Source: an uncultured virus (IMG/VR IMGVR_UViG_3300037400_005412) (taxonomy: Duplodnaviria; Heunggongvirae; Uroviricota; Caudoviricetes). Taken from it: a stretch of DNA of 64,000 nucleotides. A model generated the notes under the pieces. That model saw nothing but the letters and a program-made list of their open reading frames with translations, was not told the DNA's origin and searched no databases. The number at the start of each line of letters is the position of its first letter. The stretch's first letter is position 1. Both the position numbers and the translations under genes were made by a program. This document shows, piece by piece, positions 37,945-49,411 of this stretch. The stretch is from IMG/VR virus record IMGVR_UViG_3300037400_005412. One strand, given 5' to 3'.

Positions 37945-38250
37945 ATGATAATGAAATATAGTTATGAAGATAGTATTAAGATTAGTCAACAAGCATTAGA
38001 TTTAATAGATGTAAAAAAATTTTTAATTAGTGGTAAAGATATTTCTGATATAAAATATGATATACGTTTCTACATATATATTTCAGAAGATAAAGTAAAA
38101 AATTTTATATCGCAATATTCTGATATATTTGGAATAGATTTAGATATTTTTAATTATATAGAAGACGATGAGTTTATTAATTATTGTAAGAAAAGATATC
38201 CTGATATATGTTGGGGTAATGAAATAATAGAAAGGCATTGGGTAATATAA
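37945..38250 (+). CDS. Hypothetical protein
   Basis: Track ORF. Confidence 0.55.
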   Translation: MIMKYSYEDSIKISQQALDLIDVKKFLISGKDISDIKYDIRFYIYISEDKVKNFISQYSDIFGIDLDIFNYIEDDEFINYCKKRYPDICWGNEIIERHWVI

Positions 38251-38253
38251 AAA

Positions 38254-39538
38254 ATGGAAACTATTATATTAAATAATAAACAAGAGGAGGCGTTGAAATT
38301 AGCTGTAGCCAGATATAATCTTGGTATGCCATATACCGTAATATCTGGCTACGCTTAACGCTGGCTCTGGAAAAAGTACTCTTGTTAAATTTATAATTGC
38401 AGCATTAAATATTCCACCAGAGCAAGTAGCATATGTAGCTTATACAGGTAAAGCAGCTAATGTACTAAAAAATAAAGGTTGCCCAAATGCTACTACTGCG
38501 CATAAATTATTATATTATGCTAAAAGAACTAAAGAAGGATTTTTTATTTTTGAGCCTAAAGAAAGATTAGATGCTGATTATAAATTAATAGTTGTAGATG
38601 AAGTATCTATGTTGCCAGACGAAATGTGGTACTAGCTATTAAGCCATGGAGTTTATGTGCTGGCCTGCGGAGATCCAGGTTAGCTAGAACCAGTAAAAGC
38701 ATCTGCTGCGCCAGTTCTTGAGAAACCTCATATCTTCCTCGATGAAATTATGCGATAGGCACAAGAGAGTGCTATTATTAGGTTATCAATGCATATCCGT
38801 GAGGGAAAAGATTTTAGAACTTTTCCAACAGTAAGTGGTGAGGTGCGCATTATTCCTTCTAAATCTTTATTTTATGATGAAGATTCTGCTCTTCTTCAAG
38901 CTAGCTAGATTATTTGTGGGACTAATGAAGAGCGCAAACGTATTAATAATAGAGTTAGACAGCTAATTGGTCGAGGAGAATTGCCAGAAATTGGCGATAA
39001 AATAATTGGACTTGATAACCATTGGGATTGTATTAGTAAACAAGGTAATGCTTTAACCAATGGAGCTATTGGAACAATTAAAAATTTTAATTTAAAAGAA
39101 TAGCGATATCCTAATAAGACTGATTCACGATTTAAGTATTTTCCAGATTCTACTTTATTAATGTACACAGATTTTGAAACCGATGATGGGGATTACTTTC
39201 CAGAGTGTATAATGCCACTTGATTATAATTGTATTATTACAGGAGATCCAACTTTAAATCCAAAACAAGAAGCTAGTCTTGCTAATTATTAGAAAAATTT
39301 ATTAGCTCAAGCAAAAAGGAGAGATAATTTTCCTTTTGAAAGATATTGGAAAGATTTGCCATATCATTTTAATTATGCATATGCAATTACTTGCTGGAAA
39401 GCGCAAGGTAGTTAGTATCCATATGTATTAGGTTACGACTGCTCTTGGTTAAAACGGAAAAATACTGATGAATATAAAAAATACCTTTATACATTGGTGA
39501 CTCGTGCTGAATAGGCAGTAATTTTAGTGGGAGATTAA
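38254..39538 (+). CDS. RecD/Dda-like SF1B helicase; frame interrupted by a 7-nt insert at 38356-38362
   Basis: ISGYA[TAACGCT]GSGKST, AYTGKAA, VVDEVSM, GDPGQL, MRQA, YAITCWKAQGS, YTLVTRA. Confidence 0.85.
38305..38362 (+). promoter_or_regulatory. Candidate translational bypass/recoding element (stem-loop, take-off codon, TAA, landing codon)
   Basis: GTAGCCAGATAT/ATATCTGGCTAC 12-bp stem followed by GCT TAA C GCT. Confidence 0.65.
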
Positions 39539-39539
39539 A

Positions 39540-39719
39540 ATGACTAATTTTACAGAAGATTTTGAAAAAATTTTTGATGGATTACAATCTCTTCAAACTA
39601 ATCTTGAAGTTGAATTAAATAATTTAAATTAGCGTATAAGTTATTTAGAATATAAACAAACTCAAGATGATGAGTTTTATAAAAATTTAGAACTTTTAAT
39701 TCAAAAAAGGAATAAATAA
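39540..39719 (+). CDS. Small coiled-coil protein
   Basis: Open under code 15. Confidence 0.5.
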
Positions 39720-39721
39720 AA

Positions 39722-39892
39722 ATGGAAATTGAAATTACTCAAGAAATATTAGATGAAGTAAATATGTTTTTAAACAATGGATTAGTTTAGCTTTTAAATG
39801 ATACTGGAATGAGTTTTTCAGCATTAACATTTATAGCACAAAGTATAGTATCTGCGGTTGATAAAGTGCAAGAAGAACTTGACAAAAATTAA
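39722..39892 (+). CDS. Hypothetical protein
   Basis: Open under code 15. Confidence 0.45.
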
Positions 39893-39930
39893 GATTTATG
39901 ATATAATATATATGATAAATTATAAAGAGG

Positions 39931-42900
39931 GTGATTAATATAAATACTCAGATTAATACATTTTTTGATTGTCACGCTCATACTGAGTATTCTTAAATTT
40001 AATATAAGATTAATTGACTGTATCAATCATCCAAAAGACTTAATTAATAGAGCGATTGAAATAGGGCTTAGTGGATGTAGTATAACCGACCACGAAGCTC
40101 TATGCTCGCATATGATTGTTAATAAGTATGCTAAAGAGATAAAAGAAAAATATCCTGACTTTACAATCGCATTAGGTAATGAAATTTATCTTACAGATAC
40201 GAGAGATAAAGGACAAAAATATTATCACTTTATTTTATTAGCAAAGGATAGATTAGGGTATAAAGGTCTTTGTGAATTAAGTTCAACAGCTTGGTATAAT
40301 GTTTATGTAGATAGACGTCTTGAAAGAGTTCCAACTTTAAAAAGTGAACTTAAAGAGATTATGAAAAAATATAAAGGTCATATTATTGCGACGACCGCTT
40401 GTATGGGTGGAGAGCTATCTACGAATTTATATGGTTTGGCATTAGCAAGAAAAACTCAAGATAAAGAATATGAAAAATTATATTATGATAAAGCAGTTGA
40501 GTTTATAAATTTTTGTATTGATGTTTTTGGAAAAGAAGATTTTTATATTGAATGCGCCCCAAGCATAAAGTCAGATCAAGTAATTGTTAATAAACAATTA
40601 TTAAATGTTGCTCATGCTATGGGCTTAAAAATGGTAATAGGAACAGATGCTCATTATCTTAAAAAAGAAGATAGATATGTACATAAATCATATTTAAACT
40701 CAAAACAAGAAGAACGTGAAGTTGATGATTTTTATGAATATGCTTATATGCAATCTCCACAGGAAGTTAGAGAACATTTAAGTGCTTCAATGAGTGATAG
40801 AGATATTGATTGGATATTTGAAAATTCATTAGAAGTTAAAAATAAAATAGATTTTTATAGTCTTGAAAAACACCAACATATTCCAGAAGTAAAAGTAAAA
40901 AATTATCCAAAACAAGGATATTTAGAGTTTTTTGGCGGTTCGTTTGATGGCTATAATGATCAATTAGATGAATTTTATAACGAGTGTCCAATATTAACAG
41001 AACTTTTTAATAGTGATAATGTCCAAGAAAGATATTGGGTAAACCAATGTTTTGAAGCATTAATGGACAAAGGAATTGGTTTAAAACAAGAATATGTTAA
41101 AAGATTAGAAGAAGAGGCACGAGTAAAAAGAATTATTGGTGAAAAACTTCAAACTTGTATGTTCGCATATCCAAATACTCTTCAGCATTATATTGATTTA
41201 TTTTGGAGATGCGGTAGTACGGTTGGAGCAGGACGTGGTTCAGCATGTTCTGGTTTAAATCATTATCTTTTAGGAGTAACTCAACTTGATCCTATACAAT
41301 GGGACTTGCCCTGGTGGAGATATTTGAACGATGAGCGTGTTGAACTCGGTAGTCTATGGTTGATATTGCCGAGTTGTAAAAAAAGAATGTGAACCCTGCT
41401 AAGGGGTGTCAATTAATAAAATTGGCTAACGGTATTAGTGAAATAAGGCATAATGCACGAATCAACTAACTAAGAGAGCCTATGTCCTGAAATATGGATA
41501 GATTGGGGATACCGTGCTTTTTAACTATAATAAATAAAAATCCAGGTCAAAGTCTGCTAATTATATTATCTTAAATTTCATGTTATATAGAAAGAGAGAT
41601 GATATAATGAAAAGTTATTATATTTATTTAACTACTAATTTAATAAATAATAAAAAATATATAGGAATGCATCATGGCGAATTAAATGATGATTACCTAG
41701 GTAGTGGAAATAATATTGTCAATGCAATTAAGAAATATGGAAAAGAAAATTTTAAAAGAATAATTTTACATATTTCTAAAGATTATGAAGATAATTGTTA
41801 TTGGGAAAAATATTATATAGAAAAATATAATGCAGTAGCAGATAGAAATTTCTATAATATTCACGAAGGCGGAGCAGGTGGCAATACTATTGCTGGTTGG
41901 TCTAAAGAAAGATTAGAATAGTATAAAAAAGAAAAAAGTATAATGTCGTCTGGTAAAAATAATCCAAGATATGGGATCCATTTAACCGAAGAAACTAAAT
42001 AGAAAATTCGTGAAAATAGAAATACTGATTATATGAAAACTGAATAGTATAGAAAAAATATGTCTATGGCAGTTAGTGGTGAAAAAAATGGAATGTATGG
42101 GAAAAAACATACAGAAGAGGCTAAACAAAAAATGTCATAGCATAAAAAAGGAAAAAAATTAAATGCTGAAAATGGTAATGCAAAGAAAATAATTGCTTAT
42201 AAAGATGTCAAACATACTGAAAAAGTTAAAGAATTTGGATGTATTAAAGAAGCATTAATTTGGTTAGGAACAAATAGTAAAGATTATTCAGGTATTTCAA
42301 AAAGGATGAAAGAAAATAAACCATATAAAGGTTTTTATTGGGTTAAAGAGTGTAGAGACTAATATAAAGGGATAGAGATAAGCACTATCCTGTAGCGCAT
42401 TCGCATGATAATTGAAGTTATTGCACGCAGTAAATTATTATGTAAGAGATAGTCCATTAAAGGATATTGACTTAGACTTAGCGCCAAGTAAGCTTCCAAA
42501 AATTTTTGAAGAAATTCGTAAAGAACGTGGAGAATTTGGTATTGTCCAAGTTTGTACCTTTGGTACAGAAGCAACTAAGTCAGCAGTTTTAACCGCTTGT
42601 CGTGGTTATAGAAGTGAAGAATATCCAGATGGAATAGATGTTGATGATGCTCAATATATTTCATCATTAGTTCCACAAGAGCGAGGATTTTTATGGGATC
42701 TTCATGATATGATTGAAGGGAATCCTGATAAAGGTAGATTGCCGCAAAAACAATTCATAAATACAGTAAATCAATATCCAGGTCTTTTAGATATTATGAA
42801 AGGTATTGAGGGATTGGTATCTCGTAGAGGTATTCATGCTTCTGGTGTTATTTTATTTGATGAAGATATATTTAGTGAAGCAGCTATTATGAAAGCCAGA

Positions 42901-44997
42901 AATGGAAATTTAACAACTCAATGGGATCTTCATGACCAAGAAGCTGCTGGTAGTGTTAAATATGATTTTCTTTTAACTGCTGTTCAAGATATTATTATTG
43001 AAACAATTGATTTGCTTCAAGCAGATGAAGTTATAGACCCCACTTTATCTTTAAGAGAAGTATATGATAAATATCTTCATCCAAATGTTCTTCCGCAAAA
43101 TGATGATAAAATGTGGGACGCTTTGGCAAAAGGTAGTGTATTAGGAATATTTCAATTTGAAGGTTCTGTTGGAGCTCAAGCAGCAAAAAAGATTAAACCA
43201 CATAATCCATTAGAAATGGCTGATGCGAATGGATTAATGAGATTAATGGCAAGTGAACCTGGGGCTGAAATGCCACTTGATAAATATGTTCGTTATAAAA
43301 ATAATATTAATCAATGGTATATGGAAATGGATAGATGCGGTTTAACAAAAGAAGAACAAACAGCTATTGAGCCACATTTTAAATCTTCATATGGTGTCCC
43401 TCCAAGCCAAGAGCAGTTAATGCGAATGTTAATGGATGAAAATATCTGCGGTTTTACATTAGCAGAAGCAAATGCAGCTCGTAAAATTGTTGGTAAAAAA
43501 TAGATGTCTAAAATTCCAGGATTAAAACAAAAAGTTTTAGAATCAGCTAAATCTCCAAAATTAGGTGAATATATTTGGAAATATGGGGCTGGTCCATAGA
43601 TGGGCTACTCATTCAGTATTATTCATGCATTAGCTTATTCGTTTATTGGAATGCAAACATTATATTTAGGTGTATATTACCCTATATATTGGAATACGGC
43701 TTATTTAATTGTTAATAGCGGAGCATTGGGTGGCGATGAAGATGATGATGGAGATAAACAAGATGGAACAGATTATAAAAAAGTTGCGAAAGCTATTGGA
43801 TAGATTAGAGCTGCTGGAATTAAAATAAGTTTAGCAGATATTAATCGTTCAGAGTTTGGCTTTGTCCCAGATCCAGAGAATAATCAAATTCTTTTTGGTA
43901 TGAAGGGTATGTTAAATGTTGGCGATGATATAATTGAAGAAATTATAGCACATCGTCCATATATTTCTCCACGAGATTTTATAAATAAAGTAAAACCAAA
44001 TAAACAAGTTATGATTTCTTTAATTAAAGGTGGCGCTTTTGATAATTTAATTGATAGAAAAGAATGTATGGCTTGGTATTTATGGGAAAATTGTGATAAG
44101 AAAAAACGAATTACTTTATAGAATATGGCTGGATTAATGAAATATAAATTAGTGCCAGAAGACACCGATGAAAAGGTAATGGCGCGAAGGATATATGAAT
44201 TTAATAGATATTTGAAAGCAATTACAATTCCAGCGAATAAATTAAAACCATATTATGTATTGGATGAACGCGCCATGAATTTTTTAATAAATATTGAAAA
44301 AGAAGATTTAATTTGTCAAAATGGAAATATATATTGTTTATTAAAAGCAGATTGGGAAAAAATTTATCAATCTTATATGGATGTCTTTCGCCAATGGATA
44401 GCCGAAAATCATGATGAATTACTTAATAATTTAAATAAGTTAATTTTTATGGATGAATGGAATAAATATGCGAAAGGAACTATATCTGCTTGGGAAATGG
44501 AGTCTTTGTGTTTTTATTATCACGAGCATGAATTAGCGCATTTAAATAATTATAAATATGGATTTGTCGATTTTAATAAATTACCAGTTGAACCTAAAAT
44601 AGATAAAACATTTACTAAAGGTGGGCGCACTATTAATATGTATAAATTATATAAGATATGCGGCACTTGTATAGCTAAAAATAAAAATAAAAGTACAGTT
44701 TCTTTATTAACCACTACTGGAGTTGTAGAAGTTAAGTTCCGTCGTGAATATTTTGCTTTATTTGATAAACGAATTTCTGCTAAAGGTGAAGATGGGAAAA
44801 AACATATAGTTGAAAAATCATGGTTTGATCGCGGTAGTATGATTATTGTACAAGGAATGCGTTTAGATGATATGTTTGTATCAAAAAAATATGCTTCTTC
44901 TGGAGGGCATCAACTCTATAAAATTGATGAAGTTATTGATGATGAAATTAAAATAAGAACAACTCGCGCTCAAGGCGATGAAGAAGAGGAAGAATAA
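39931..44997 (+). CDS. dnaE: DNA polymerase III alpha (family C); 7-nt insert at 39994-40000 and group I intron at 41351-42462
   Basis: DCHAHTEYS[TAAATTT]NIRLID, ITDHE, TDAHY, GRGSA, ELG|DIDLD, GIHASGV, KYDFL, GIFQFE, GYSFSIIHA; start codon approximate. Confidence 0.9.
39943..40000 (+). promoter_or_regulatory. Candidate translational bypass/recoding element
   Basis: AATACTCAG/CTGAGTATT 9-bp stem followed by TCT TAA A TTT. Confidence 0.6.
41351..42462 (+). ncRNA. Group I intron in dnaE, just before the catalytic DIDLD
   Basis: Exon ends GGT, intron ends in G; R TGTAGAGACTA ~42351, S AAGAGATAGTCC ~42444; P1 AACTCGGT/GCCGAGTT. Confidence 0.88.
41607..42362 (+). CDS. Intron-encoded GIY-YIG homing endonuclease with NUMOD3 repeats
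   Basis: YIYLTTNLINNKKYIG, YLGSG, NPRYGIHLTEETKQKI, NGMYGKKHTEEAKQKMS. Confidence 0.85.
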
Positions 44998-45895: not shown

Positions 45896-48800
45896 ATGGT
45901 TATTAAACGTGATAATTCAAAAGTTGATTTTGATGCTAGAAAAATCGTAAATGCTATCAATAAAGCTTTTATTGAAGTAGACGGTTAGTTATATGAAAAT
46001 GATACTGCTACTGATATTGCTATCGACATAGGTAAAAAATATATTGATACAGATGTTGATGTTGAGACAATTTAGAATGATGTCGAAGATTATTTAATGC
46101 GTTCAGAACGTAAAGATGTAGCTCGGGCATATATCCGTTATAGATATAAAAAAGAAGTAGCTAGAAAAGTTCAAGATGACTTTATTGCCCCTATTAAAGA
46201 TAAACTTGAAGCAGCAAATGTATAGAATCAAAATGCTAATGTTGATGAATATTCATTTGGCGGTCGCATGGGTGAAGCTGCAAGTTATATGACAAAAGAT
46301 TATGCTATTAATTATCTTTTATCTGATAAAGCAAAGCGCAATCATTTAAACAATAGAATTTATATTCATGATTTAGATCATTATGCTCTTGGTGATCATA
46401 ATTGTTTAAGTGTGCCATTTGATGAATTACTTGCTAATGGATTTAATACTCGTCAATCTGATGTGCGCCCTGCTGGATCTGTAAATACTGCTTGCCAATT
46501 AGTAGCGGTTATTTTCCAACTTCAATCCTTATAGCAATTTGGTGGAGTTAGCGCTACTCATATTGATTGGACAATGGTCCCATATATCCGCAAAAGTTTT
46601 ACTAAACATATTGAAAATGGTTTAATTTATATAGAACATTTATCTGAATATAAATAGAAACGTTTTACTAAATGGTTAAAAGATGCTCCAGACTATCCAG
46701 ATGGGACTATTCATTTTGATGATGTAAAATTTTAGAAAAAGCATCCAGAAGTATTTGAATATGCTATGGATATGACTGAAAAAGAAGTTCATCAAGCAGT
46801 TGAAGGTCTTTATCATAATTTAAATACATTACAAAGTAGGTCGGGTAGACCTTAAAGTTGCCCCATTATTTGGTAACAAATAATTGATAATCCAGCAAAA
46901 TCGGTAAAATCTAAAAATTATTTTTTGGTCAGTTCTAATTTATAGAGTATTTAGAAAATTTATATTATATAGAAAATAATAATATAAAAGGAAGAAAAAA
47001 GTATGAAACGAACTGATAAAAAAATTGAATAGCAAGTTATTAATTTATATAGTACAACTAATTTATCTATGGTAAAAGTTGGACAATAGTTTGACCTTTC
47101 AGGAGCTACTGTTATGGCAATTTTAAATAGAAATAATATTCCTAAACGAACAAAAGGTGGTATTTATAAAATACCAGATAATGATGTTATACAAAAATAT
47201 ACTCAAGAAAATAAATCTTGTCAAGAAATTGCTAATGAATATAATGTTAGTTTTAACACTATTAGTATGATTTTAGAAAAATATAATATAAAACGAAATA
47301 ATATTTATTTTAATAAAAATTTATAGAGTGATTATTTTTCTTCAATAGATACATATGATAAAGCATATTTTTTAGGACTTTTAATTACTGATGGGAATGT
47401 AACTAAAGAAGGAAATGCTATTAGACTATCATTAAAATTAGAAGATGAAGAAATTTTAAAAACTTTTACTTCTAAAGTAAAAAGTGAAAATCAATTAGTA
47501 TATCGACAAGATAAACCAGAGGTCACTTTTTCTGTAAAAAATAAACAATGGAAAATAGATCTAGCAAAATTCGGAGTTATACCTTGTAAAACAACATCAA
47601 TAGAAATGCCATTATTAGCAGATGAAATGATGCCTCATTTAATTAGAGGAATGATAGATGGTGATGGCAGTATTTCTAGTAAGTCACATTATATTTTCTT
47701 TTGTGGTAATAAAAAAACAGTATAGCAATTACATGATTATTTAGTAGAAAAATTAAATCTTTATAATGTAAAAATTTTACATACAGAAGAAAATTTGTGG
47801 AGTTGTCAATGGAGTTCTAAAAAAGATATATTAAAAATAGGTCAATATATTTATCAAAATAAACAAGATTGTTATTTAAAACGAAAATATAATAATTTTT
47901 TACAAATAATTCAAGATAATACCGAGGTAACTTCTTTGATTACGAAAGGCAAAGAAGCACCGTAGAGCGTAGAGAGTGAATAAATATAATCTCTCCAAGA
48001 GTGTTGGACTTCCTTAATGTAAGGAAGAAAATGTACGCCGAACTAATAAGAAATTATTAGAATTACTGGATAAAAAACCAGTAAGATAACATATTTGAAC
48101 TAGTTACCATTTACTTCTATTAATTATGGTACTTGTACTTTGCCAGAAGGAAGAATGTTTACTCGTGCTTTGTTAGAAGTTAGTATCGAAGGACTTGGAA
48201 AATTACATAAAACTTCTATTTTCCCATGCGGGATTTTCTAGTGTATGAATGGTGTTAATCGTAAATATGGTGATCCAAATTATGATTTATATATTTTAGC
48301 ATTAGAAAGCACCTCTAAACGTCTTTATCCAAATTATGCTAATGTGGATTGGTCAGGCAATGCTGGATATGATAAAAATGATCCAACTACATATTTTTCA
48401 ACGATGGGATGTAGAACTGTTAATGGGGCTGATATAAATGTTGAACCTGGTGTCAATCCACAACGTAAAGATGGACGTGGTAATATTTGTCCTGTAACTA
48501 TTATTATGCCTACTCTTGCTATGGAAGCTGTGTAGACTACAGAAGATGATGAAAATGCTAATGGCAAAGAAAGTATTATTAATAAATTTATAGAACTTTT
48601 AGATAAAGCTATTTATGATGCTAGAGATATGCTTTTAGAAAGATTTGAATGGATTTGTTCTTAGAGCCCATCAAGTGCTAAATTTATGTATGAAAATAAT
48701 ACTATGAGTGGTTATCATCCAGAAGAAGGAATTATTAGTGCCCTTAAGCATGGCACATTAGTTATTGGATAGCTCGGGCTAGCAGAGACTCTTCAAATTC

Positions 48801-49411
48801 TTATTGGAAAAGATCATACTACTTTTGAAGGAATGGAGTTAGCTAAACGTATTGAACAATTATTTAAAGATCGGTGTGCTCAATTTAAACAAGAAGAACA
48901 TTTGAATTTTGGTGTTTATTATACTCCTGCAGAGAACCTTTGTTATACAGCTCTCAAAAAATTCCGTGAAAAATATGGAGTTATTGAAAATGTTAGTGAT
49001 AAAGATTTCTTTACAAATTCTATTCACGTTCCAGTTTGGAAGAATATGAGTCCATTTGATAAAATTGATATTGAAAGTCAATTAACTGGATATAGTAATG
49101 CTGGATGTATTACCTATGTAGAATTAGATGCATCTGTTGTTCATAATATTGAAGCATTAGAATAGATTGTTAATTATGCTATGGATCATGATATTCCATA
49201 TTTCGCTATTAATGTCCCTTCTGATACTTGTTTAAATTGCGGTTTTTAGGGAGAAATAAATGATAAATGCCCAATATGCGGAAGTACTCATATCCAACAA
49301 CTTCGTCGCGTAACTGGTTATTTAACTGGAAATTATACTACTGCTTTTAATCTTGGAAAACAAGATGAAGTTCATCATAGAGTAAAACATGTAGGAGAGA
49401 TAACGCCATGA
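45896..49411 (+). CDS. nrdD: Anaerobic ribonucleoside-triphosphate reductase; exons 45896-46846 and 48098-49411
   Basis: ATP cone, YIHDLD, spliced LQSRSG|NQLPFTSINYG, MGCRT, TPAENL, RRVTGYL. Confidence 0.92.
46847..48097 (+). ncRNA. Group I intron in nrdD
   Basis: Exon ends in U, intron ends in G; splicing restores the conserved motif; core segments CAAAATCGGT, ATACCGAGGTAA, CGTAGAGCGTA, ATGTACGCCGA. Confidence 0.88.
47003..47983 (+). CDS. Intron-encoded LAGLIDADG homing endonuclease with HTH repeats
   Basis: KAYFLGLLITDG and HLIRGMIDGDGSI; several TAG. Confidence 0.85.

What the first reader, a model, noticed from the sequence alone, without database searches (positions are those of the whole stretch)
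38305..40000. Paired 'hairpin-TAA-7-nt gap' elements interrupt two replication genes: candidate new programmed ribosomal bypass switch
Seen: the RecD-like helicase and DnaE genes are each broken near their 5' end (codon ~34 and ~21) inside an essential motif by exactly 7 extra nt beginning with TAA. Both sites read TAY NCT TAA N NNT. Removing the 7 nt restores GYAGSGKST and HAHTEYSNIRL. In both, an inverted repeat spanning 48-49 nt ends at the codon before the stop. Established: T4 gene 60 bypassing uses a take-off codon, a stop, a matched landing codon and a 5' stem-loop; prfB frameshifting at TAT CTT TGA senses release-factor levels. Inference: matching length, context and structure are unlikely for independent sequencing errors. 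They suggest a stop-hop (or +1 shift, or enzymatic micro-excision) that makes replisome synthesis depend on termination efficiency, a plausible sensor in a phage that rewires stop-codon decoding.
Basis: partly seen in the sequence, partly recalled or inferred. Interest (0 to 1): 0.95.

Follow-up and report, generated by a model that had tools for sequence, protein, structure and literature searches.

The report
Short ribosome-hop gaps in phage replication genes
Two replication genes of an uncultured cattle-gut phage are each broken by a stop codon plus four bases right behind an RNA hairpin, and dozens of related phages carry the same kind of 5 to 8 base break, so ribosomes most likely hop over it, a way of reading genes that is almost unknown in nature.

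Summary
The Dda/RecD-like helicase (ATG 38254) and dnaE each carry a 7-nt insert that starts with TAA (38356-38362; 39994-40000). Each insert lies just 3' of a hairpin, and uninterrupted homologues read straight across both sites.

The inserts are not errors. Contigs from other studies span both sites without gaps, including contigs from RNA libraries. Of 80 judged helicase loci, 15 are interrupted at the same codon. A pattern census of IMG/VR gave 80 more placements with inserts of 5, 6, 7 or 8 nt.

Every insert starts with a stop directly after GCY. Its last triplet is GCN or one base away from it. Interrupted genes have a strong upstream hairpin (median -24 against -9.7 kcal/mol) and evolve under purifying selection (dN/dS 0.02-0.07). 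In near-complete relatives the interrupted gene is the only copy.

The best reading is a programmed short translational bypass, a stop-hop driven by a 5' hairpin (confidence 0.7). A single frameshift rule cannot cover the four insert lengths. The proposed link to TAG recoding is not supported, because standard-code relatives carry the element too. No product has been shown.

Earlier AI notes of this scan describe similar sites in other phage genes on other DNA. I found no publication describing this.

The parts
38254..38355 (+). Upstream segment of the Dda/RecD-like helicase gene: 34 codons, ATG 38254, ending in the take-off codon GCT at 38353-38355
   Evidence: Translation. The read-through protein P0002 matches phrog_325 (Dda-like helicase) over residues 1-427. 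Homologues continue GYA directly into GSGKST.
38301..38355 (+). 5' hairpin. Outer stem 38301-38303 plus 38305-38316 pairs with 38341-38352 plus 38353-38355. Inner stem is 38322-38328 with 38332-38338. The 3' base of the hairpin is the take-off codon itself.
   Evidence: strand folding gave -26.2 kcal/mol, z -3.65, 0 of 200 shuffles as good. Coordinates. Equivalent hairpins occur in 11 of 13 distinct interrupted relatives against 1 of 50 uninterrupted, at MFE <= -18.
38356..38362 (+). 7-nt coding gap TAACGCT: stop TAA 38356-38358, spacer C 38359, landing codon GCT 38360-38362 (same as the take-off codon)
   Evidence: Sequence. The gap is absent from 65 of 80 judged loci. It is kept in contigs of other DNA studies and in one RNA-library contig.
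38363..39538 (+). Downstream segment of the helicase, in the +1 frame. It resumes at GGC (the first G of GSGKST) and holds 8 in-frame TAG codons read as Gln.
   Evidence: Translation. Pfam AAA_30, AAA_19 and UvrD_C_2. No ATG in this frame until +253 nt.
39879..39907 (+). Consensus sigma-70-type promoter in front of dnaE (TTGACA, 17 nt, TATAAT, with TG)
   Evidence: 12 of 12 consensus matches. This is a pattern match only.
39931..39993 (+). Upstream segment of dnaE. The start is uncertain (GTG 39931, ATA 39940 or ATT 39952; there is no ATG). It ends in the take-off codon TCT at 39991-39993 and encodes ...FFDCHAHTEYS.
   Evidence: Translation. Homologues read HAHTEYS directly followed by NIRLIDCINH.
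39943..39991 (+). 5' hairpin of the dnaE site: 9-bp stem 39943-39951 with 39983-39991, loop 31 nt. The stem ends on the first base of the take-off codon.
   Evidence: The hairpin is weak alone (z -1.99). Relatives L089 and L230 have a different 7-9-bp stem ending at or within a few nucleotides of the take-off codon.
39994..40000 (+). 7-nt coding gap TAAATTT: stop TAA 39994-39996, spacer A 39997, landing triplet TTT 39998-40000 (one base from the take-off codon TCT)
   Evidence: Sequence. The gap is absent from 23 of 29 related loci. It is kept in DNA contigs of other studies and in one RNA-library contig.
40001..41392 (+). dnaE first part after the gap (PHP domain and start of the polymerase core)
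   Evidence: Pfam PHP and DNA_pol3_alpha.
42412..44997 (+). dnaE second part, separated from the first by an insertion that carries a GIY-YIG/NUMOD3 endonuclease gene (41580-42362)
   Evidence: Pfam; PHROG homing endonuclease.

Best explanation
Both breaks are programmed short translational bypass sites, or stop-hops. The inferred sequence of events is as follows.

1. A ribosome translating the helicase reaches GCU (Ala) in the P site with UAA in the A site.
2. Decoding stalls at the stop codon.
3. The peptidyl-tRNA lets go of the take-off codon.
4. The mRNA slides forward 7 nt.
5. The same tRNA re-pairs with the next GCU.
6. Translation resumes at GGC and gives the normal P-loop GYAGSGKST.

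The same happens in dnaE, from UCU over UAAA to UUU, with translation resuming at AAU.

The hairpin just upstream has its 3' arm inside the ribosome at take-off, and its base is the take-off codon. It most likely acts as a zipper. Each base of exiting mRNA can pair with the waiting 5' arm. That pulls the mRNA forward and hides the take-off codon.

Ribosomes that fail to hop terminate at once, releasing a peptide of 34 residues (helicase) or at most 21 (dnaE). The hop therefore sets the yield of two replisome proteins.

What is shown: the anatomy, its conservation, the hairpin association, purifying selection, the single gene copy in relatives, and persistence of the gap in DNA and in RNA-library contigs.

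What is inferred: the hop itself, the hairpin's role as a driver, and any regulatory purpose.
For: 1. True insertions. Uninterrupted homologues read GYAGSGKST and HAHTEYSNIRL with no extra residues.

2. Recurrence in the helicase. 15 of 80 judged loci are interrupted at the same codon. These are the 79 judged IMG/VR loci plus the window; L027 had no upstream sequence.

3. Census. A pattern scan of IMG/VR gave 115 loci and 118 placements. 80 of these lie in a G.GK[ST]T context, of which 60 are distinct. Insert lengths are 5 nt (35), 6 nt (12), 7 nt (16) and 8 nt (17). Four more placements are led by TAG. Seven more lie in MAG contigs of GTDB.

4. One rule fits all. Every insert starts with a stop directly after GCY. 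Its last triplet is GCN in 30 of the 45 inserts of 6-8 nt, and otherwise ACN (5), GTN (9) or TCC (1). All 35 inserts of 5 nt end in ACY, where the A is forced by the stop codon. In dnaE the take-off codon is TCT and the landing triplets are TTT, GCT, TCT and TCT.

5. Hairpin association. For the 70 nt upstream, 13 distinct interrupted loci have median MFE -24.0 kcal/mol against -9.7 for 50 uninterrupted loci (Mann-Whitney p 1.4e-7, not corrected for phylogeny). 11 of 13 against 1 of 50 reach -18 or lower. In the census 57 of 60 distinct sequences reach -18 or lower.

6. How the 5' arm is built. It uses Ala GCC plus AGA or CGA, where uninterrupted relatives have varied residues. Other stem sequences fill the same place in L243, L246 and L176. 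GTA..TAC alternates with ATA..TAT.

7. Purifying selection between interrupted pairs. dN/dS is 0.068 for L009/L010 (dS 0.66), 0.029 for L006/L007 and 0.020 for L054/L058.

8. Only copy. The helicase is single in G001 and G002, and dnaE is single in G004. CheckV estimates all three records as 100% complete.

9. Not an artefact. DNA contigs of other studies span both sites with 0 gaps (X2 records 9 and 15; X3 records 24, 30 and 31). RNA-library contigs keep the insert (X21 record 17 at the helicase site, X19 record 6 at the dnaE site).

10. Precedent. Synthetic stop-hops are described, and shorter natural counterparts of gene 60 were expected (PMC5009743, passages). Bypass of 10 nt is reported in the phiHau3 terminase (PMC10732093, passages). 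Pairing of exiting mRNA has been proposed as a forward driver (bioRxiv 10.1101/2024.12.09.627546, passages).
Against: - No protein product, junction peptide or reporter result exists. The hop is inferred from sequence alone.
- Many landing triplets are only near-cognate. All 35 five-nt inserts land on ACY, with a first-position mismatch for tRNA-Ala. The window's dnaE lands on UUU.
- At take-off the 3' arm of the hairpin lies inside the ribosome, so the hairpin cannot be folded at that moment. The T4 gene 60 5' stem-loop sits 9 nt upstream of its take-off codon, so the geometry differs.
- The dnaE hairpins are not significant one by one (z -0.3 to -2.0). The dnaE element is rare: 5 IMG/VR loci plus the window.
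- L006/L007 and L155 lack the 5' hairpin, and L004/L005 have a weaker one (-16.7).
- Formal covariation on one fixed structure is modest. 74.9% of cells pair, and 5 of 15 pairs change on both sides. RNAalifold did not recover the long stem. The census pattern fixed 9 nt of the 3' arm.
- The hairpin statistics are not corrected for relatedness.
- RNA-library contigs may derive from DNA, and contigs drop rare forms.
Confidence: 0.7

Rival explanations
1. The breaks are overcome by ordinary recoding at the stop rather than by a hop. That means +1 frameshifting for 7-nt inserts, +2 or -1 for 5- and 8-nt inserts, and stop read-through for 6-nt inserts. The resulting proteins would carry one or two extra residues in the P-loop or the PHP motif.
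For: Read with a +1 step at TAAC, the window's helicase is open from 38254 to 39538 and still matches phrog_325 over its full length. The resulting ANAGSGKST still fits the loose Walker A pattern [AG]x4GK[ST] (pattern recalled, not from a call). A stop in the A site is a classic stimulator of +1 shifts, as in prfB (recalled).
Against: Four different mechanisms would be needed for a single conserved design. None of the P-site codons can re-pair in the shifted frame (GCU to CUU, UCU to CUU). No Shine-Dalgarno sequence lies near either site. None of 65 uninterrupted homologues has extra residues at this spot. This model gives no reason for the last triplet of the insert to copy the take-off codon.
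Confidence: 0.12
2. The genes are not rescued at all. The stop and hairpin simply end a short upstream ORF. The downstream part is either not made (a decaying gene) or made separately by re-initiation.
For: A stop right after a hairpin near the 5' end resembles a leader-peptide or attenuator layout. In L089 and L230 the dnaE hairpin encloses the start codon. Ribosomes can slide and re-initiate after termination (PMC11194080, abstract only).
Against: Downstream frames stay intact at 350-391 codons in all 15 interrupted loci, under strong purifying selection. The upstream codons are conserved too (pN 0.016 against pS 0.18 for L009/L010). The downstream frame has no ATG for 253 nt (helicase) and 118 nt (dnaE). 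The split falls inside the P-loop and inside the PHP metal motif, so separate pieces would lack essential residues. The interrupted gene is the only copy in complete relatives.
Confidence: 0.08
3. The 5-8 nt are removed before translation. This could be an RNA-level excision or editing step guided by the hairpin, or a DNA-level excision in a subpopulation of genomes.
For: The hairpin could serve as a recognition structure. Direct repeats (GCT...GCT) flank the gap. One sample (X3) also holds an uninterrupted dnaE variant, seen as a loose end at 40001.
Against: RNA-library contigs X21 record 17 and X19 record 6 keep the inserts, and no joint across either gap was reported in 4 runs. No bacterial or phage system that removes 5-8 nt from RNA is known to me (recalled). 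This model does not explain why each insert must begin with a stop. The uninterrupted variant in X3 differs at other bases, so it is a related phage and not an excision product.
Confidence: 0.05
4. The inserts are sequencing or assembly errors, or recent inactivating mutations in defective phages.
For: Metagenome assemblies do contain indel errors. L093 has a single extra T in a T run.
Against: The same inserts appear in contigs of other studies. More than 80 IMG/VR placements carry ordered variation. The inserts persist across lineages that differ at 30% or more of their residues.
Confidence: 0.02

Closest known systems
Phage T4 gene 60 programmed translational bypass (50-nt gap)
   Same: A phage replication-related gene is interrupted by a non-coding gap. 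The take-off codon is followed directly by a stop. The landing codon matches the take-off codon. An mRNA structure involves the take-off codon, and pairing of exiting mRNA has been proposed as a forward driver.
   Different: The gap here is 5-8 nt, not 50. The stimulating structure lies wholly 5' of the stop and ends on the take-off codon, whereas in gene 60 the stem-loop starts at the take-off codon and a separate 5' stem-loop sits 9 nt upstream. No nascent-peptide signal is evident; the nascent chain is only 34 residues in the helicase and at most 21 in dnaE. There is no internal Shine-Dalgarno sequence and no sequence similarity. No homing-endonuclease gene lies next to the window's helicase.
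Streptomyces phage phiHau3 large terminase: two 10-nt inserts after UUA, plus a 7-nt case in a S. catenulae prophage (PMC10732093, passages read)
   Same: Short coding gaps interrupt an essential phage gene. A slow-to-decode A-site codon and a 5' stem-loop are present. Homologues lack the insert. In E. coli the bypass worked when UUA was changed to the stop UAA.
   Different: The natural trigger there is the rare sense codon UUA, and a flanking Shine-Dalgarno sequence is invoked. Three of 100 terminase genes were affected. Here the trigger is a true stop (TAA, TGA or TAG) with no Shine-Dalgarno sequence. The affected genes are a helicase and dnaE, the hosts are probably gut Firmicutes or Mollicutes, and there are more than 80 natural variants.
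Synthetic 'stop-hops' in E. coli (Weiss et al. 1987, as described in PMC5009743)
   Same: [quoted passage not shown] The 6-nt class here (for example GCT TAA GCT) has exactly this layout.
   Different: Those were low-efficiency events in constructs without stimulators. The review states that no natural in-frame stop-hop was known. Here the sites are natural, conserved and carry a dedicated hairpin.
Magnusiomyces capitatus mitochondrial 'byp' elements
   Same: Many short inserts in coding genes are bypassed. Take-off and landing codons are sometimes only two-out-of-three matched, and the A-site codon is unused or slow.
   Different: Those elements are 27-55 nt (size recalled), mitochondrial, and largely independent of context. 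Here the gaps are much shorter and tied to one site per gene with a specific hairpin.
prfB (RF2) +1 frameshift site CUU UGA C
   Same: A stop in the A site gives a pause that allows a change of frame. The yield could depend on release-factor activity.
   Different: Re-pairing in the +1 frame and a Shine-Dalgarno sequence 3 nt upstream define prfB. Neither is present here.

Membership tests
Programmed translational bypassing (hop) in general | A non-coding gap inside one ORF that is absent from homologues, with coding resuming in register with the homologues | tested here: met
   GYA|GSGKST and EYS|NIRL are contiguous in 65 of 80 judged helicase loci and in 23 of 29 dnaE loci.
Programmed translational bypassing (hop) in general | A slow-to-decode or stop codon directly 3' of the take-off codon | tested here: met
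   The stop is TAA in the window. All 80 census placements have TAA or TGA by design of the pattern. Four have TAG. Three dnaE relatives have TAG or TAA.
Programmed translational bypassing (hop) in general | A landing codon matching the take-off codon, 5'-adjacent to the resume codon | tested here: met
   The window's helicase has GCT and GCT. Of the 45 inserts of 6-8 nt, 30 end in GCN and the rest are one base off. The window's dnaE has TCT and TTT (near match only). L089 and L230 have TCT and TCT.
Programmed translational bypassing (hop) in general | A single polypeptide made across the gap | not testable with these tools
   This needs a reporter assay or mass spectrometry. There is indirect support only: purifying selection and a single gene copy.
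T4 gene 60 / MobA cassette | Homologous cassette: a roughly 50-nt gap, take-off stem-loop, nascent-peptide signal and an adjacent mobA homing-endonuclease gene | tested here: not met
   The gap is 7 nt. No endonuclease family was found in the ORFs flanking the window's helicase. The host genes are different. The site works like gene 60 but is not a member of that cassette.
prfB-type +1 programmed frameshift | A P-site codon that re-pairs in the +1 frame, plus a Shine-Dalgarno sequence a few nt upstream | tested here: not met
   GCU and UCU cannot re-pair on CUU, and no Shine-Dalgarno-like run lies within 20 nt upstream. Inserts of 5, 6 and 8 nt need other shifts.
phiHau3-type short bypass | A rare UUA codon as trigger, with a 5' stem-loop and a flanking Shine-Dalgarno sequence | tested here: inconclusive
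   The 5' stem-loop is present. The trigger is a stop and not UUA, and there is no Shine-Dalgarno sequence. This looks like the same kind of mechanism in a different variant.
Self-splicing intron or intein | An intervening sequence long enough to fold or to encode a splicing domain | tested here: not met
   The insert is 5-8 nt. Rfam gave no hit in the window.

The most novel reading that the evidence does not exclude
The helicase and dnaE gaps belong to a widespread, undescribed class of natural stop-hop elements in phage replication genes. The design is a zipper hairpin whose base is the take-off codon, a stop codon, a spacer of up to 2 nt (in the 5-nt class the landing triplet overlaps the stop), and a cognate or near-cognate landing codon. 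The 6-nt variants (GCY TAA GCN) would be the first natural in-frame stop-hops. The more than 80 natural variants would amount to a ready-made mutational series for the rules of ribosome sliding. Because failure ends in a short leader peptide of 34 residues or fewer, the element could gate replisome synthesis according to termination capacity. It may spread or persist in the same arms race with homing endonucleases that shaped T4 gene 60.
Probability: 0.6. Interest if true: 0.88.

Novelty: new variant of a known kind. Interest (0 to 1): 0.8.

Why it matters
Efficient natural bypassing is known from very few systems: T4 gene 60 and its homologues, Magnusiomyces mitochondria, and the partly tested phiHau3 terminase. 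The 2016 review by Atkins and colleagues says that shorter counterparts were long presumed, and that no natural in-frame stop-hop was known.

This case offers a compact element of about 60 nt in two essential genes. It comes with dozens of natural variants in gap length, stop codon, landing codon and stem sequence. These variants make several questions directly testable:
- how far a peptidyl-tRNA can slide;
- how much mismatch landing tolerates;
- whether pairing of exiting mRNA drives the movement.

It also matters for annotation. Gene callers truncate these helicase and polymerase genes or mark them as broken, so phage replication modules in gut viromes are under-called.

Tried and rejected
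- **Whole genome of the window.** It is not held. A second gene copy could be excluded only within the 64-kb window for the helicase (tblastn) and in near-complete relatives.
- **Cultured phages.** No close relative was found, only DnaE similarity of 69-76% over short stretches. A helicase tblastn put AR9 and PBS1 matches starting at residue 36, but their annotated genes are continuous, so they are not interrupted. A blastn search with the element gave only chance-level hits.
- **Other searches of the window.** No tRNA was found and no Rfam family.
- **Scan for further sites in the window.** I looked for a stop with a change of open frame. One search added a hairpin filter and one search did not. 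Among 117 candidates only the two known sites combined a closed new frame, a distant first ATG and a hairpin. The filters were crude.
- **RNAalifold on 70 hairpin regions.** It returned only a trivial 3-pair structure. I then counted pairs on a structure derived from the window, which biases the count towards that structure.
- **Endonuclease linkage.** By Pfam, GIY-YIG ORFs were found in 2 of 13 interrupted loci: between helicase and dnaE in L031, and inside recJ in L006. By eye, endonuclease-like ORFs without a Pfam hit lie between helicase and dnaE in L004, L006 and L010. Eight uninterrupted loci had none. Only + strand ORFs were scanned (62 of 282 listed). The sample is too small and uneven to support a link.
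- **Quasipalindrome origin.** I considered by eye whether the insert was templated from the hairpin. The flanks do not template the varied inserts.
- **Run shares below 0.2.** They were not used as evidence of habitat.
- **Literature.** Searches for a prior description found none for helicase or dnaE. The library lacks most subscription journals, and bioRxiv supplements could not be read.

Full report
**What is in the window**

The region belongs to low-GC phage-like DNA in which TAG is read as a sense codon. With TAG=Q the ORFs become long. The helicase alone has 8 in-frame TAG codons.

The gene starting at ATG 38254 encodes a Dda/RecD-like SF1 helicase. It matches Pfam AAA_30, AAA_19 and UvrD_C_2 and phrog_325 over its full length. 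A perfect sigma-70-type promoter match lies at 39879-39907, and the gene behind it is dnaE, with PHP, DNA_pol3_alpha, finger and HHH domains.

The helicase reads ...ISGYA, then TAA, and continues one base out of frame as AGSGKST.... dnaE reads ...FFDCHAHTEYS, then TAA, and continues as NIRLIDCINH.... Exact places were checked:
- Helicase: take-off codon GCT 38353-38355, gap TAACGCT 38356-38362.
- dnaE: take-off codon TCT 39991-39993, gap TAAATTT 39994-40000.

**The 7 nt are true insertions and not errors**

Uninterrupted relatives from IMG/VR read GYAGSGKST and HAHTEYSNIRLIDCINH with nothing in between.

I laid the contigs of four public runs on 38200-40100.
- DNA contigs from two other studies span the helicase site (X2 record 9, X3 record 24) and the dnaE site (X2 record 15, X3 records 30 and 31) with no gap.
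- Contigs from RNA libraries also keep the inserts: X21 record 17 at the helicase site and X19 record 6 at the dnaE site.
- No joint across either gap was listed.
- RNA-library contigs can derive from contaminating DNA, and contigs drop rare forms. This argues against RNA-level removal but does not exclude it.
- X3 also holds an uninterrupted dnaE relative, seen as a loose end at 40001.
- The runs are labelled bovine gut metagenomes.

**The helicase gap is a family trait**

Of the 80 helicase loci kept from IMG/VR (111 relatives confirmed, best 80 kept), L027 lacks upstream sequence. Adding the window gives 80 judged loci. 15 are interrupted at exactly the codon after GGC TAY GCY. The inserts are:
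- 7 nt: TAACGCT, TAACGCC, TAACGCG, TAAAGCA, TAAGGCA, TAAAGCT, TAAAACT
- 8 nt: TGAAGGCA, TAAATGCT
- 6 nt, in frame: TAAGCA
- 5 nt: TGACT, TAACT

A pattern scan of IMG/VR (GGCTAYGCY, TRA, 0-5 nt, then GGNNNNGGNAAR) returned 115 loci and 118 placements. 80 of them have G.GK[ST]T downstream, and 60 of those are distinct. Of the 38 others, two read GVGKSV and are probably helicases, and the rest are unrelated. Insert lengths are 5 nt (35), 6 nt (12), 7 nt (16) and 8 nt (17).

A second scan with TAG as the stop found four more, all with strong hairpins. The same pattern in one genome per prokaryote species found 10 contigs, all in MAGs. Seven had helicase context, two did not, and my script did not evaluate one (L233).

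These censuses required the GGCTAYGCY context. They are therefore lower bounds, and they fix part of the 3' arm.

**One rule covers all variants**

Each insert begins with a stop directly after the Ala codon GCY. Each ends in a triplet that copies that codon or differs from it at one of the first two positions.
- Among the 45 inserts of 6-8 nt: GCN 30, GTN 9, ACN 5, TCC 1.
- All 35 inserts of 5 nt end in ACY. The A is the last base of the stop, so ACY is the closest possible mimic of GCY.

In dnaE the take-off codon is TCT. The landing triplets are TTT (window, L082, L084), GCT (L081) and TCT (L089, L230).

This is what a hop needs. The peptidyl-tRNA leaves GCY or UCU and re-pairs 5-8 nt downstream, and the next codon (GGN, AAY) restores the homologous protein.

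A frameshift model would need +1, +2 or -1 shifts and read-through for different members of one design. It would put one or two extra residues into a P-loop that shows no length variation in 65 uninterrupted homologues. It also gives no reason for the landing triplet.

**The hairpin goes with the gap**

Helicase:
- For the 70 nt that end in the take-off codon, 13 distinct interrupted sequences have a median MFE of -24.0 kcal/mol. The 50 distinct uninterrupted ones have -9.7 (Mann-Whitney p 1.4e-7, not corrected for relatedness).
- 11 of 13 against 1 of 50 reach -18. In the census 57 of 60 distinct sequences reach -18.
- The window's hairpin has z -3.65, L012 has -4.24 and L009 has -5.52.
- The codon table shows how the stem is made. 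Interrupted genes have Ala GCC followed by AGA or CGA, which pairs with GGC and TCT or GCT. Uninterrupted relatives have Ser, Glu, Asn, Lys or Thr at that position.
- GTA..TAC alternates with ATA..TAT.
- L243/L125, L246 and L176/L194 use quite different 5' arms to pair with the same region.

Limits on the helicase evidence:
- Counting on one fixed structure taken from the window gives 74.9% of cells paired, against at most 48% for slid controls. Covariation is only modest: 5 of 15 pairs change on both sides, and 2 of 500 shuffles reach the score.
- RNAalifold did not recover the stem.
- L006/L007 and L155 (TGACT) have no 5' hairpin. L006 instead has a stem-loop that holds the take-off codon and the stop in its 5' arm (z -3.79).
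- L004/L005 have a weaker hairpin (-16.7).

dnaE:
- Each hairpin is weak alone (z -0.3 to -2.0).
- Three sequence-distinct versions each place a 7-9-bp stem that ends at or within a few nucleotides of the take-off codon: AATACTCAG/CTGAGTATT, ATAATGAGT/ACTCATTAT and ATGAGTA/TACTCAT. Two of them include the start codon.
- Four distinct interrupted sequences average -10.6 kcal/mol against -7.0 for 18 uninterrupted (p 0.013). L093 and L107 were dropped by the script.

**The interrupted genes are in use**

- Downstream frames are intact in all 15 interrupted loci, at 350-391 codons.
- dN/dS between interrupted pairs is 0.068 for L009/L010 (dS 0.66), 0.029 for L006/L007 and 0.020 for L054/L058. The upstream 26 codons are conserved as well.
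- Three relatives' records are estimated by CheckV to be 100% complete. In G001 and G002 the interrupted helicase is the only match. In G004 the interrupted dnaE is the only dnaE.
- The window holds no second helicase copy. Its whole genome is not held.
- The downstream frames have no ATG for 253 and 118 nt. The breaks fall inside the P-loop and the PHP metal motif, so a separately initiated product would lack essential residues.

**Distribution**

On a quick maximum-likelihood tree of 66 distinct helicases, the interrupted state needs at least 9 changes, and at least 6 are forced by well-supported branches (the careful search had not finished). The cause could be repeated loss by deletion between the repeated codons, repeated gain, or patchwise recombination. 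I could not tell these apart.

The two elements are independent of each other. L007 and L008 have the helicase gap with an uninterrupted dnaE (L083, L086).

They are also independent of TAG recoding. L009, L019, L068 and L089 look standard-code. L001-L003, L016 and L021 are recoded but uninterrupted.

The dnaE element is rare, with five IMG/VR loci at the 7-nt pattern.

**Likely mechanism (inferred)**

At take-off the 12-15 nt of the 3' arm lie in the ribosome's mRNA channel. The 5' arm and a small inner stem-loop are already outside.

With a stop in the A site the ribosome waits. Each nucleotide of mRNA that leaves can pair with the 5' arm, which favours forward sliding. The last pairs of the stem involve the take-off codon itself, which would hinder re-pairing at the old place. 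Sliding ends when the anticodon finds the landing triplet.

This agrees with the proposal that pairing of exiting mRNA drives forward bypassing in T4 gene 60 (bioRxiv 10.1101/2024.12.09.627546, passages). There, however, the 5' stem-loop sits 9 nt upstream, and it is poorly conserved among gene 60 homologues (bioRxiv 10.1101/2022.08.31.505936, section 19).

Efficiency and any dependence on release factors are unknown.

**Comparison with what is known**

The closest cases are:
- T4 gene 60.
- The phiHau3 terminase, with 10-nt inserts after UUA, a 7-nt case in a prophage, and bypass shown by mass spectrometry in E. coli after UUA was changed to UAA (PMC10732093, passages).
- Synthetic stop-hops.

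The 2016 review states that shorter counterparts of gene 60 were long presumed and that no natural in-frame stop-hop was known (PMC5009743, passages).

Six literature searches found no description of such gaps in helicase or dnaE genes. The library lacks most subscription journals.

Earlier AI notes of this scan report the same hairpin, stop and short-gap layout in other phage genes on other DNA: dnaE, methylases, uvsW, DNA polymerase, terminase and portal. I did not test those notes, and they are not independent evidence.

**Verdict**

The stop-hop reading is the best supported (0.7), but it rests on sequence comparison only. The recoding-sensor idea is not supported. This is a new variant of a known kind. 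Interest is high because of the large natural series and because the test is simple.

Noticed in passing
window 41393-42411: dnaE is split a second time by an insertion of about 1 kb. The insertion carries a GIY-YIG/NUMOD3 homing-endonuclease gene (41580-42362). The polymerase resumes at 42412. This is probably a group I intron, but Rfam gave no hit.
   Followed up: partly
window 45896-49411: An NrdD-like anaerobic ribonucleotide reductase is split at profile position 293 of 718. The pieces are 45896-46855 and 48095-49411, and an endonuclease ORF (47003-47983) lies between them.
   Followed up: partly
window 39879-39952: A 12-of-12 sigma-70 consensus promoter with TG lies directly before dnaE. 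The dnaE upstream segment has no ATG. Possible starts are GTG 39931 (inside the Shine-Dalgarno-like run), ATA 39940 and ATT 39952. Relatives start with ATG or TTG at the position of ATT.
   Followed up: no
L093, about 1590-1610: A dnaE relative has a single extra T five codons 3' of the window's site. This creates CTT TGA C, the same heptamer as the prfB shift site. It may be a homopolymer error or another recoding site.
   Followed up: no
L006:2993-3040 and L007: The TGACT variants lack the 5' hairpin. They have a predicted stem-loop that holds the take-off codon and the stop in its 5' arm (-13 kcal/mol, z -3.79), which recalls the T4 take-off stem-loop.
   Followed up: partly
L068:618-1064: A phage with an 8-nt helicase gap encodes a PTH2-type peptidyl-tRNA hydrolase next to recJ. 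This enzyme recycles dropped-off peptidyl-tRNA, which is a side product of hopping. It is a single case.
   Followed up: no
L004:3522-4442, L010:4169-4969, L006:4348-5016, L031:4585-5160: Endonuclease-like ORFs lie between helicase and dnaE in some interrupted loci. L031 has a GIY-YIG ORF by Pfam. The others have Cys-rich repeats with an HNH-like or nuclease-like tail, judged by eye with no Pfam hit. None was seen in the eight uninterrupted loci scanned. The numbers are too small to link them to the gaps.
   Followed up: partly
G004:C1:55449-57808 (record of L230): In the phage that carries the TCT TAAC TCT dnaE gap, the helicase match is in two pieces about 1.3 kb apart, and the first piece contains a TAA. 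This may be another insertion and another gap.
   Followed up: no
window 38320-38331: A variant strain in an RNA library (X21 record 17) differs from the window at three bases of the region enclosed by the outer stem (two of them in the predicted inner stem). It differs at none of the outer stem or the gap.
   Followed up: no
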